DNA of 64,000 bases from positions 51,956,001 through 52,020,000 of the forward strand of contig OZ336875.1 of NCBI GenBank assembly GCA_965287045.1. Direction: 5' to 3'. This DNA comes from Carcharhinus amblyrhynchos. Its lineage: Eukaryota. Below, one piece after another: positions 9,001 to 12,000 of this stretch. The position numbers are program-made. The first letter of the stretch is position 1, and each line of letters opens with the position of its first letter.

Positions 9001-12000
9001 CTGTAAACTAGTGGCCTCAGTAGCTGATGCTTATTTTTGATTTAGGTTAAAGTAACAGATTTATAGACACTCGCCCCTCCCCACATCAGGCCCTGCTGCC
9101 TGCCGAAGCATGTCCACTAAGGCTACTGCTGACAGTTTTCTGTAAAGTGCTTAAAATGAGTGCAATGCCAATGGATGGCATCCTTGATATAGCTGGTCAG
9201 CACATGTTAAAATCAAAAATCTGGAAGAAAACATTGGGTGTCGGTTGTAGAGACTGTTTGCTTGCTCAGGGGGGTATATTGCAGATTAAGGAGAAAGTAA
9301 CCAGATGTGATTTTTGGAACAATGCCCTGAGTTTCAGCTGTTAGAAAAGACACTGCTGGATAATTCACTGGCACTTTAAGATGATGTGGACAACAGAATG
9401 GAAATAGCTCCGATAGATTCTTAATTTAAATGCCCTTGGTTATCGCAGTTGGCTTGAAGAGATGATCTCTTGTGCAAAAGTGATTGCAGTAGCGGTCATA
9501 ATTACACCAGATATCCTGTGATTTTGAATGTGGTGATCAAGGACTTTAGGTCAAAGGGACTTGAATTTGGAGAGGTGACCATGATGAATTGCAGTGACAT
9601 TGCATGGATGAAATGGTTATTTGCCTGGGAAAAAGGCAAATGACAAATTTATTGATAATAAACTTCTTGGTAGAATTGACACCCATGGGGTTGAAGGCAC
9701 AGGGGATATAAGTTTACTGATGCAACAAAAGCTGAGCATGTTAGTGGACACTTGTTTTTCTGACTGGAGGAAAATCTAACAGTGGTGTTCTCTAATGGTT
9801 GGTCTTATGCCCATTGCTCTTTGACACGTGGCTAGACTTGGGTTGTAAAAAAAAAGGTTGCAGGTGGCCCAGAACTTGGAAATGCAGTGAAGAGGGTGCT
9901 GGAAGACTTGATGGCTTAAGTGCATGTCAGGTGCTGCGTAGTATGGAGTAGCAATGATGAGGCACGATATAAACTAAACAGTACTGTTTTAAAAAGTGTA
10001 CAGCAGCAGAGTGCTGGGGATTTATGTAACGCATTTTTGCAGATGGCAGGACAGCATGATCAGGTTGATTTATAAACAAAGCATAAATTACAAAAACATC
10101 CAAGTTGCGCTAAACCTTCATAAATGATTGATTGGACCCTATCTGGAGTAATGTTGTTTGTGCATTGTACAGGAAGGATATCAAGGGCTTAGTAAGGAGC
10201 TAGAGCAAATTTACTGGGGGTGGGGAACATCAGTATCTGGAGAAGCCAGGATTGCTTACAATGAAGGATAGAGGGTTGGGAAAGGTGTTCAAAATCGGAG
10301 TCTTGATAAAATGTGAGAAATTTCCAGTAGCAGGCAGGTCAGTAACCAGAAGAGAGATTTATGGTAATTGATGAAAGAAAGGACAAGGTACGTATTTTTA
10401 CACATCTGTAACGTGCTGCCTGTAGGCTGCTGGAGACACATTCTGTAGAACTGACCTAGAATACTGTACTGAGGCCATCTGGCCCAATGTGTTATCATTC
10501 TGTTGCCCCGCAAACTTCTCACCCATCTATTCATTCATAAGAACATAAGAAATAGGAGCAGGAGTAGGCCATCTAGCCCCTCGAGATGGCCTACTCCTGC
10601 TCCTATTTCTTATGTTCTTATGAATGAATAGATGGGTGAGAAGTTTGCGGGGCAACAGAATGATAACACATTGGGCCAGATGGCCTCAGTACAGTATTCT
10701 AGGTCAGTTCTTTTTAAAAAAAAGACTTGAGAGAAGAATAAATCTTAATGTTGAAAGTTTTGTGAACCTGGTATTTAAGACACTGGGAAATGGTTTTGGT
10801 TTGAAGCATCCCCCAGCAGTCCAGAGAGGGAATGCTTTCTTCACAAATCAGAGTCCAAAGTAGAGATGAGCAATGGTTAAAATTGTCATCCAGTTTCCTT
10901 TACAGTTAAACCAGGTGAGTTGGGCAGAATCATCAGCCTTGGCTTAGTGATGTATTTGTGACTCAGGCACAGGTTGTGGTATCAAGCCCCAGAGTTGGAC
11001 ACGTGATATAGGCTGAAACTTCAGTGAAGTTTTGCAGGAGTGCTAACAGAAGTAATGCATTATTCCAGCTTGGATGTTAATCAAGGTCCCACCTGCCCTT
11101 TAAAGTGAGCATTGAAGATCCCATGGCAATGTTCAAGGAACTGAGTGGTCCCCTAATGTCCTCCGTCCACATCACTAAGACAAATTATCTAGTCAATATT
11201 TTAAGTGATTTCTGGTTCTATATTTGTTCCCTATATTACAATCATAACAACACTTGCCTTACTAACTGAAGTGATAGTTTTTGCTTCTTGGCGTTAGTGG
11301 TTGATCATAGAATCACTACAATTCAGGGGGTGGCCATTCAGCCCATCAAGCCTGCACTGATGACAGTCCTGCTTGGGGCCTATCCCTGTAATCCCACATT
11401 TACCCTGCTAGTCTCCCTGACCATAGGGGGCAATTTCACATGGCCAATCCACCTAACCTGTACATGTTTGGATTATGGAAGGAAACAGGAGCACCCAGAA
11501 GAAACCCATGCAGACCAGGGGTAGAACGTGCAACTCCACACAGTGACCCGAGGCCAGAATTGAACCCGGGTCCTGCTGTAGGGCAGCAATGCTAACAACT
11601 GTGCTGCCCTACATCTAATGCTTTTGTTGACTACTGTTTATAAGGGTTTACATCTAATGCACTATTTCCTATAAATGTCACTCATGATTACTATTTCTTG
11701 CCATTAATTTAATGATTGCGTTTAACGTTATTTAATTAGAAAGTAGTTGCATTTATATAGCACCTTTTGTGCACTCTGGGCATTGCATGATACTTTACAG
11801 ACAATGAAGTACTTCAGAAGTTTAGTCATTGTTGTAATGTAGGCAGCTAGTTTGTGCATAGCAAGCTCCCACAAATGGAATGAAGTCATGACTAGATGAT
11901 CTCCTTTTGGCTGGTGTAATTGAGATGGAAGTTGGCCAGACACTGGAGGGAGTGGAAGGAGTCTTGATTAAATATTTTGCAGGAAAGATAGTGCTGCACT

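What the first reader, a model, noticed from the sequence alone, without database searches (positions are those of the whole stretch)
10447..10711. Perfect 265-bp palindrome in RPLP2 intron 3, centred on a tiny LINE 3' tail
Seen: 128-bp arms with no mismatch and a 9-nt loop. The inner part of each arm (about 38 bp) is a CR1-type 3' terminus (agatggcctactcctgctcctatttcttatgttcttatg), and the loop continues that tail in antisense (ctcgaggggct). The outer part (about 90 bp) of the right arm looks like the continuation of the old CR1 that breaks off at 10446, so the left arm appears to be the new copy. Inference: an abortive retrotransposition whose cDNA folded back and copied itself plus flanking DNA, giving an inverted rather than direct target duplication. 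It is very recent and would create a 128-bp perfect dsRNA hairpin in a highly expressed pre-mRNA (possible ADAR/Dicer substrate) and a cruciform-prone site.
Basis: partly seen in the sequence, partly recalled or inferred. Interest (0 to 1): 0.72.

Follow-up and report, generated by a model that had tools for sequence, protein, structure and literature searches.

The report
Perfect palindrome from LINE snap-back
A 265-base perfect hairpin-forming insertion in an intron of a ribosomal protein gene is most likely a jumping-gene (LINE) copy whose new DNA strand folded back and copied itself, an accident so far described mainly in engineered and cancer cells.

Summary
Arms 10447-10574 and 10584-10711 are 128 nt and 100% complementary, with a 9-nt loop. 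They lie mid-way in the 6.4-kb third intron of an RPLP2-like gene on the + strand.

The centre is a CR1-type LINE 3' tail: two TTCTTATG octamers and a match to a profile of 12 in-window CR1 3' ends, E 0.0074. The loop continues that tail only when read on the minus strand.

Its detail, inverted duplication of the target, is probably wrong. The interrupted old CR1 seems to resume directly after the palindrome at 10712. The outer arm part looks like a second, foreign CR1 3' end that finishes where CR1 copies finish.

So the whole 265 bp is most simply one insertion. About 139 nt of cDNA were primed at 10446, snapped back on a 2-nt AG/CT overlap, copied themselves, and were sealed without target duplication.

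The evidence separating the two variants is mixed. No eukaryotic genome could be searched. Snap-back junctions are already known for R2 and L1, so interest is moderate.

The parts
10447..10711 (.). whole 265-bp perfect palindrome, read here as one insertion
10447..10535 (-). outer part of the left arm: antisense copy of a CR1-type 3' end (R1). In the favoured model this is the first ~89 nt of RNA-templated cDNA primed from 10446.
   Evidence: Mirror of 10623-10711. CR1 3'-UTR likeness of R1.
10536..10585 (-). 49-50 nt of a CR1-type tail, read in sense on the minus strand: inner left arm, loop and 2 nt. It ends in 2 x TTCTTATG. This is the 5'-truncated LINE fragment.
   Evidence: nhmmer E 0.0074 at 10584->10551. 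Alignment with in-window copies H, J, K. Octamers.
10575..10583 (+). 9-nt loop AGCCCCTCG, the only asymmetric part. It gives the polarity of the cDNA.
10584..10585 (+). AG: 2-nt overlap that could be templated either by the LINE RNA or by the fold-back (pairs with CT at 10573-10574). The inferred turning point.
   Evidence: sequence; inference
10584..10622 (+). inner right arm: sense copy of the 39-nt tail, inferred to be the snap-back copy
10623..10711 (+). outer right arm (R1): CR1-type 3' end in sense. It stops 25 nt after its GGCCT motif; copies D and E stop 27 and 31 nt after theirs (my count from the printed rows).
   Evidence: Local alignment against the 3' parts of copies G (0 of 400 shuffles as good) and F (8 of 400). 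Weak profile hits at 10665-10696 and 10666-10690. Alignment rows.
10237..10446 (+). old, decayed CR1 (end of ORF2) that the palindrome interrupts
   Evidence: nhmmer, 7-copy profile, E 0.012 as-is; the match reaches 10446 and beyond only when the palindrome is removed
10712..10735 (+). T4A8GACTT...: putative direct continuation of the old CR1 (the 'F-K-K-x-L-D/E' codons of other copies)
   Evidence: Copies C, D, E, F, A carry a T/A run at this place. Further downstream it is not significantly CR1-like.
7041..7164 (+). RPLP2-like exon with the start codon (exon 2 if a 5' non-coding exon exists)
7248..7296 (+). RPLP2-like exon 3
   Evidence: splice sites read from the sequence
13735..13821 (+). 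RPLP2-like exon 4
14322..14444 (+). open frame holding the last coding exon (acidic tail, stop at 14442-14444)

Best explanation
The 265 bp are one retrotransposition accident.

(1) A CR1-type LINE enzyme nicked the + strand between 10446 and 10712, inside an old CR1 in RPLP2 intron 3, and used the 3'-OH at 10446 as primer (inferred).

(2) It reverse-transcribed about 139 nt. First came the last ~89 nt of a CR1-type 3' end (now 10447-10535). Then came 49-50 nt of the tail of a second CR1 subfamily (10536-10585). The template was either one RNA from a nested CR1-in-CR1 locus or two RNAs joined by a template jump; this is open.

(3) The cDNA 3' end ...CTCGAG folded back. Its last AG paired with CT nine bases upstream, and the strand copied itself back to its own start (10586-10711).

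(4) The returning 3' end lay next to the 5' end at the original nick and was sealed. This gave no target-site duplication and no deletion. Replication then fixed the hairpin strand as a duplex palindrome (inferred).

It probably has no function. Its consequences are a 128-bp perfect RNA hairpin in a highly expressed pre-mRNA and a cruciform-prone DNA site (inferred).
For: - Perfect arms and a 9-nt loop.
- The inner arm is a CR1-type tail with 2 x TTCTTATG. It matches a 12-copy in-window CR1 3' profile at E 0.0074, on the minus strand with the loop included. Older in-window copies H, J and K show the same upstream continuation. So the contiguous antisense tail sits on the + strand, attached to the left arm and to 10446, which is what priming from 10446 predicts.
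- The outer arm part is CR1 3'-UTR-like in the matching orientation only. Mean z is 1.54 against 0.31 for its reverse complement; against copy G 0 of 400 shuffles score as well, against F 8 of 400. It ends within a few bases of where CR1 copies end. So both palindrome ends coincide with an RNA 3' terminus.
- With the palindrome removed, the old CR1's profile match extends across the join (12.3 vs 7.9 and 7.7 bits). Pairwise alignments to copies A and C also run across it. By eye the frame stays open across the join.
- T{3,}A{3,} runs occur 140 times on the two strands of the 64-kb window, so one exactly at the join is about a 0.5-1% chance. Five of 12 CR1 copies have such a run at that place.
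- No TSD: only TTCT, offset by 2 nt.
- Snap-back and 'extra template' 5' junctions are documented for R2-protein insertions in human cells (PMC11371274 and PMC11331408, passages read). Small-hairpin inverted duplications with 2-bp homology are documented at L1 insertions (bioRxiv 10.1101/2024.12.14.628481, passages read).
Against: - Beyond the T/A run the sequence after 10712 is not detectably CR1-like. For 10727-10870 against copy A, 613 of 2000 shuffles and 526 of 1959 random window segments score as well. Mean z against 7 copies is -0.10, against 0.64 and 0.90 for two controls.
- The colinear test is weak: D 14/1000, A 97/1000, E 416, F 572, C 468. Ranks among 140 T/A-run sites are 10th, 30th and 23rd.
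- No + strand CR1 tail hit with a positive score lies in 10712-11100.
- A 48-nt profile of the sequence after the T/A run finds nothing at 10712. It finds a very weak hit (-0.6 bits, rank 56 of 85) at the tail|R1 junction, 10617-10637.
- Chain alignments split.
- The model needs a composite template (two CR1 3' ends in tandem) that I could not find; there are no other copies in the window.
- The profile E-values are modest and the models were built from this window only.
Confidence: 0.55

Rival explanations
1. A short CR1 tail was inserted into the old CR1 at 10446|~10623, and fold-back synthesis copied the tail plus ~89 nt of flanking target. The right arm's outer part is then ancestral, the left arm is new, and the result is an inverted target duplication.
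For: - The right arm's outer part is the only detectable CR1-type 3' end downstream of the old CR1 on the + strand.
- It starts near the CR1 coordinate where the old copy breaks: weak hit to profile positions 11-31 at 10617-10637.
- Chain alignments favour it for copies E (gain 26 vs 16) and M (11 vs 3).
- Everything is local, so no composite template is needed.
- L1 insertions with inverted duplication of adjacent genomic DNA are documented (bioRxiv 10.1101/2024.12.14.628481, passages).
Against: - It needs a deletion of the old CR1's T/A-run region. The estimate is ~13 to ~70 nt depending on the alignment.
- It must treat as chance that the flank at 10712 starts with that very T/A run, flush with 10446 (140 such runs on the two strands of the 64-kb window).
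- The duplication would have to stop exactly at the old CR1's terminus.
- A simple snap-back of cDNA primed from the bottom strand predicts the loop in the opposite orientation to the one seen (reasoning). Rescue needs an extra break or a double template switch.
Confidence: 0.2
2. A pre-existing palindromic DNA (a foldback or MITE-like element, or a free hairpin DNA made elsewhere) was inserted or captured at a break. The LINE-tail content only records how the first copy arose.
For: The whole 265 bp behave as one insert. A second near-perfect palindrome without TSD lies in the same window at 62130-62574.
Against: - No TSD.
- No other copy of the arms in 64 kb that hold 16 CR1-type tail hits at E<0.1.
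- The arms are built from two LINE 3' ends and end at a LINE terminus, not at transposase-type termini.
- The second palindrome shares no sequence with this one.
Confidence: 0.1
3. Two steps. First an ordinary 5'-truncated CR1 insertion, then a DNA-level fold-back (replication template switch, or break repair with snap-back synthesis by a host polymerase) that made it palindromic.
For: Snap-back synthesis by a host polymerase exists: Pol theta, reference 48 of PMC11371274 (title seen; content recalled). Self-annealing of resected ends giving inverted duplications is proposed's paper.
Against: The copy would have to start at the truncated 5' end, stop exactly at the insert/target boundary, and rejoin without loss or gain. 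That is natural only while those positions are free DNA ends, that is, during the insertion itself.
Confidence: 0.07
4. Assembly or library artefact (fold-back chimeric reads).
For: Perfect identity of the arms. No reads were available to me.
Against: The sequence leaves and re-enters unique intron sequence on both sides, and the gene continues to its last exons. The arms are foreign to the locus and to the window and carry a LINE tail with a polar loop. A simple fold-back chimera would mirror local sequence and would not return.
Confidence: 0.05

Closest known systems
'Snap-back' (and 'extra template') 5' junctions of R2-protein-mediated insertions (PRINT) in human cells: PMC11371274 and PMC11331408, passages read
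   Same: [quoted passage not shown] This gives antisense element sequence next to the target. A second template copied after the first is a described class.
   Different: Those are engineered R2 insertions in rDNA of cultured cells, seen in reads. Here it is a natural CR1-type event fixed in a germline genome. The snap-back copy runs the full length of the cDNA, so the product is a perfect palindrome with no TSD.
L1 insertions with inverted duplication or foldback junctions (bioRxiv 10.1101/2024.12.14.628481, passages read)
   Same: Small hairpin, 2-bp homology at the turn, and synthesis primed by a self-annealed 3' end during TPRT.
   Different: There the duplicated DNA is genomic sequence next to the insertion, in cancer or induced-L1 clones. 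Here the duplicated DNA is most likely the cDNA itself.
Twin priming (5'-inverted L1; reference 47 of PMC11371274, title seen, content recalled)
   Same: It yields inverted LINE sequence at the 5' side of an insertion.
   Different: Twin priming inverts a different, more 5' part of the RNA and keeps a TSD. Here both arms are the same sequence and there is no TSD.
MITEs and foldback DNA transposons
   Same: A short insert made almost wholly of two inverted arms.
   Different: No TSD, no other copy in the window, and arms made of LINE 3' ends.
CR1 LINE 3' end: hairpin plus 8-bp microsatellite (PMC8665684, passages read)
   Same: Two octamers, TTCTTATG, close to the avian ATTCTRTG. No poly(A).
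   Different: Only the 3' half of the expected hairpin is present, because the copy is truncated at ~49 nt. The host is not a bird.

Membership tests
CR1-type LINE 3' end (5'-truncated copy) | 3' microsatellite of ~8-bp units at the terminus, no poly(A) (PMC8665684) | tested here: met
   Two perfect TTCTTATG units end the inner arm. No A-run follows them.
CR1-type LINE 3' end (5'-truncated copy) | sequence likeness to the 3' ends of elements that carry a LINE reverse transcriptase | tested here: met
   nhmmer E 0.0074 against a profile of 12 in-window 3' ends. The copies were found by tblastn with ORFs of copy C. RVT_1 hits lie in copy C (E 1.7e-13) and, below the curated cut-off, in copy A's element (27.3 vs 29.6 bits).
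CR1-type LINE 3' end (5'-truncated copy) | stable hairpin upstream of the microsatellite | tested here: inconclusive
   The fragment stops inside the expected hairpin region. Only one half can be present.
CR1-type LINE 3' end (5'-truncated copy) | placement of the RT in the CR1 clade | not tested
   No tree was built. The 'CR1' label for these elements rests on the 3' structure and on my recollection of the ORF2 C-terminal motifs.
Snap-back TPRT junction | reverse-complement copy of the element's own cDNA directly after the RNA-templated 5' end | tested here: met
   The 49-50-nt antisense tail on + (10536-10585) is followed by its own complement.
Snap-back TPRT junction | short homology at the turn | tested here: met
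   AG at 10584-10585 pairs with CT at 10573-10574 and also fits the tail.
Snap-back TPRT junction | element 3' terminus abuts the target at the primed nick | tested here: inconclusive
   The arms end 25 nt after GGCCT, against 27 (D) and 31 (E). The outer part's CR1 likeness is moderate.
Snap-back TPRT junction | empty site shows a precise insertion | not testable with these tools
   No eukaryotic genome collection was available. The only evidence is inferred from paralogous CR1 copies.
MITE / foldback DNA transposon | target-site duplication | tested here: not met
   Only TTCT, offset by 2 nt and lying inside the arm.
MITE / foldback DNA transposon | many dispersed copies | tested here: inconclusive
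   0 further copies in 64 kb. The genome was not searchable.
Twin-priming inversion | the inverted segment comes from a different (more 5') part of the RNA; TSD present | tested here: not met
   The arms are identical in sequence. No TSD.
Known structured RNA gene (miRNA, snoRNA and the like) | match to an Rfam family | tested here: not met
   0 matches at gathering score in the whole window.

The most novel reading that the evidence does not exclude
CR1-type LINEs can finish an insertion at a single nick. The cDNA snaps back, copies itself to its own base, and is ligated to the other side of the nick, with no second-strand cut, no TSD and no deletion. This would be a regular if rare source of long perfect hairpins in vertebrate genes, and so of raw material for hairpin-RNA or small-RNA loci, foldback-type repeats and fragile palindromes. 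Chains of template jump plus snap-back would then be a natural property of the CR1 enzyme, not only of engineered R2.
Probability: 0.15. Interest if true: 0.7.

Novelty: new member of a known kind. Interest (0 to 1): 0.45.

Why it matters
If real, this is a clean germline 'fossil' of a step of LINE integration that is still poorly understood: how the first cDNA strand gets a second strand. PMC13486585 says this is not understood (abstract and significance text seen).

Three features together say which strand was primed, where the enzyme turned, and that no staggered second cut was needed: the polar loop, the 2-nt turn, and the TSD-less flush junctions.

It also puts a 128-bp perfect double-stranded RNA into the pre-mRNA of a very highly expressed gene. 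That makes it a natural test case for RNA editing, small-RNA production and innate sensing, and for how long a perfect palindrome can survive in a vertebrate germline.

As a single locus without read or population support, it remains a curiosity rather than a new principle.

Tried and rejected
- In-window search for other copies of the arms and flanks: only self hits, plus one old diverged tail at 26197-26246.
- Rfam over the whole window: nothing.
- Pfam on the ATG exon's open frame: no hit. The exon was identified through PDB sequences instead.
- Many attempts to show statistically that 10712 onward is the old CR1's 3' part gave mixed or null results.
  - Local alignment against copy A: 9/500 with the T/A run and 2/1000 semi-global.
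  - Against copy C: 617/1000 and 52/500.
  - Without the T/A run: 613/2000.
  - Mean z -0.10 over 7 copies.
  - Colinear global test: only D 14/1000.
  - Junction-downstream profile: no hit at 10712.
  - Chain-gain test: split 3:2:2.
- I first read as strong proof and had to weaken that.
- The 12-copy profile does not detect the old CR1 or the outer arm part at all.
- Second palindrome, 62130-62574 (185-nt arms, 98%, 75-nt spacer): no CR1 tail hit in it, no TSD seen, unique in the window. It is not shown to be the same process.
- The imperfect ~670-bp palindrome at 26751-27441 looked like an old snap-back with CR1-type tails at its outer ends. But its arms are two SINE copies only 73.8% alike, no closer to each other than to other copies (67.5-84.5%), so two independent head-to-head insertions explain it.
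- Twin priming, a MITE and an RNA gene were considered and set aside (see membership tests).
- Not done:
  - The joined (spliced) RPLP2 model was not searched; exons were searched one by one.
  - The large protein searches, structure tools and complex prediction were not used, since nothing here turns on a protein.
  - Recurrence elsewhere in this genome, an empty site and read support therefore all stayed unchecked.
- I do not take the window for human. It is full of CR1-type LINEs and CR1-tailed SINEs. I did not put the RPLP2 exons beside the human sequence residue by residue (one search lists scores only).
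Full report
**What is there**

The window (64,000 bases, no N, 41% G+C, CpG observed/expected 0.29) holds an exact inverted repeat. The arms are 10447-10574 and 10584-10711, 128 nt each and 100% complementary, with 9 nt (AGCCCCTCG) between them. Pairing stops at once outside the arms. As RNA the region folds at -256.9 kcal/mol against -76.5 +/- 4.9 for 100 shuffles. 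Chance cannot give this. The arms occur nowhere else in the window.

**Gene context**

An RPLP2-like gene lies on the + strand.
- The exon at 7041-7164 starts with the initiator codon. It matches solved 60S acidic protein P2 chains (E 2.4e-18).
- The last coding exon matches Pfam Ribosomal_60s above its cut-off.
- Splice sites read from the sequence give exons 7248-7296 and 13735-13821.

The palindrome sits in the 6,438-nt intron 7297-13734, about 3.1 kb from one flanking exon and 3.0 kb from the other. The ATG exon has its own acceptor site, so an upstream non-coding exon is inferred and 'intron 3' is reasonable. A patatin-domain exon at 24338-24748 fits a PNPLA2-like neighbour; the synteny with human is recalled, not tested. 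I do not take the window for human.

**The centre is a LINE tail**

Each arm's inner 39 nt end in two perfect TTCTTATG octamers. This resembles the 8-bp microsatellite that, together with a hairpin, defines CR1 3' ends (PMC8665684, passages read).

tblastn with the ORFs of a well-kept in-window LINE (copy C, 38846-40720; RVT_1 E 1.7e-13) found many related copies. I aligned twelve of their 3' ends. An nhmmer profile of these gave one hit in 9900-11100. It lies on the minus strand, 10584->10551, at E 0.0074, and includes the loop bases. Three old copies of the same tail type (H, J, K) show the same upstream continuation.

So the tail is contiguous for 49-50 nt when read on the minus strand (10585->10536). 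Equivalently, the antisense (cDNA-sense) tail is contiguous on the + strand, from the left arm through the loop to AG at 10584-10585.

**What the outer 89 nt of each arm are**

In the right-arm orientation this part (R1, 10623-10711) resembles CR1 3' untranslated ends.
- Against the 3' parts of seven copies, mean z is 1.54. For copy G, 0 of 400 shuffles score as well; for F, 8 of 400.
- Its reverse complement gives mean z 0.31.
- Two profiles give weak hits to the tail core at 10665-10696 and 10666-10690.

R1 stops 25 nt after its GGCCT motif. Copies D and E stop 27 and 31 nt after theirs. The two ends of the palindrome therefore coincide, within a few bases, with a CR1 3' terminus.

**Is that outer part the continuation of the old CR1 that stops at 10446?**

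The old CR1 (10237-10446) is real but weak: 7-copy profile, E 0.012.

*For a whole-palindrome insertion:*
- With 10447-10711 removed, the profile match runs on across the join into T4A8 (12.3 bits, E 5.7e-4).
- Alignments to copies A and C also cross the join.
- As I read, the frame stays open across the join (...I L | F L K K R L E...). Other copies read ...I L S F K K H L D....
- Five of 12 copies carry a T/A run exactly there. Such runs occur only 140 times on the two strands of the window.

*Against it:*
- Beyond the run, 10727-10900 is no more CR1-like than the controls.
- No + strand tail hit with a positive score lies downstream.
- A profile of the 48 nt after the run finds nothing at 10712. 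It gives a faint hit at the tail|R1 junction instead.
- Chain alignments split: three copies for, two against, two ties.

I lean to the insertion reading for three reasons. The flush T/A run is unlikely by chance. The arm ends coincide with a LINE terminus. And the loop polarity fits. I state plainly that the window alone does not settle it.

**Mechanism (inferred)**

The + strand reads: old CR1 | antisense R1 | antisense tail | loop | sense tail | sense R1 | old CR1 resumed. Priming of reverse transcription from the 3'-OH at 10446 explains the left half directly. A cDNA of about 139 nt starts at an RNA 3' end and breaks off inside the tail's hairpin region.

The last two bases, AG, can pair with CT nine bases back. 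Extension from there copies the cDNA to its own base at the target. There the new 3' end lies beside the 5' end of the original nick and can be ligated. This predicts a perfect palindrome, a polar loop in the observed orientation, a short overlap at the turn, no target-site duplication and no deletion. All are as seen; the only flanking repeat is TTCT, offset by 2 nt.

The tandem of two LINE 3' ends in the template is open. It could be one RNA from a nested CR1-in-CR1 locus, or a template jump between two RNAs.

An extra break or a double template switch would then be needed.

**Comparison with what is known**
[quoted passage not shown] So are 'extra template' junctions (PMC11371274 and PMC11331408, passages read).
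- L1 insertions with small-hairpin inverted duplications and 2-bp homology, and foldback junctions, are described in induced-L1 clones and cancers (bioRxiv 10.1101/2024.12.14.628481, passages read).
- Twin priming and Pol theta snap-back are cited there (titles seen; content recalled).

My five literature searches listed no natural germline CR1 palindrome of this kind. They were keyword searches of open-access text and cannot show absence. I file the finding as a new member of a known kind.

**Age and consequences (inference)**

Zero differences in 2 x 128 nt, with the CpGs kept (one per arm and one in the loop), point to a young event or to correction between the arms. With a recalled vertebrate rate near 1e-9 per site per year, the first difference is expected within a few million years.

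The pre-mRNA hairpin could be edited, diced or sensed, and the DNA could extrude a cruciform. None of this was testable here.

**Limits**

All profiles were built from this one window, and their E-values are modest.

Noticed in passing
62130-62574: A second near-perfect palindrome: 185-nt arms, 98% complementary, 75-nt spacer. It is unique in the window, with no TSD seen and no CR1-tail hit inside it. Origin unknown.
   Followed up: partly
26751-27441: Two copies of a CR1-tailed SINE lie head to head (73.8% alike, ~50-nt spacer). They mimic an old palindrome but are no closer to each other than to other copies. To my eye, by comparison with copies H and J, the spacer (about 27063-27098) holds a fragment like the 3' UTR of the same CR1 tail type as the palindrome's centre; no test was run on this.
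   Followed up: partly
38846-40720 and 49301-50215: Two LINE copies (C and D) are 87.6-89.4% identical at protein level, with long open frames. They are the youngest-looking CR1-type elements in the window. From the coordinates, copy C appears to sit in the tail of an older copy (J, 38430-38845), a nested CR1-in-CR1 arrangement of the kind the favoured model needs.
   Followed up: partly
whole window: A tail profile finds 16 CR1-type 3' tails at E<0.1 in 64 kb, 7 of them the copies the profile was built from. One is a minus-strand tail at 11348-11305 in the same intron, and a SINE copy lies at 11340-11608.
   Followed up: no
24338-24748 (+): Open frame with a patatin-like phospholipase domain (E 7.2e-10), likely an exon of a PNPLA2-like gene next to RPLP2. 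The conserved neighbourhood is recalled, not tested.
   Followed up: no
7297-13734 and the other RPLP2 introns: No Rfam family reaches its gathering score anywhere in the window. From memory, the human gene hosts an H/ACA snoRNA in an intron. Either it is absent here or too diverged.
   Followed up: no
23781-23876: Small hairpin: 34-nt arms, 97% complementary, 28-nt spacer. It is made of a motif that recurs at 36475-36508 and 37272-37305, probably part of a repeat family.
   Followed up: no
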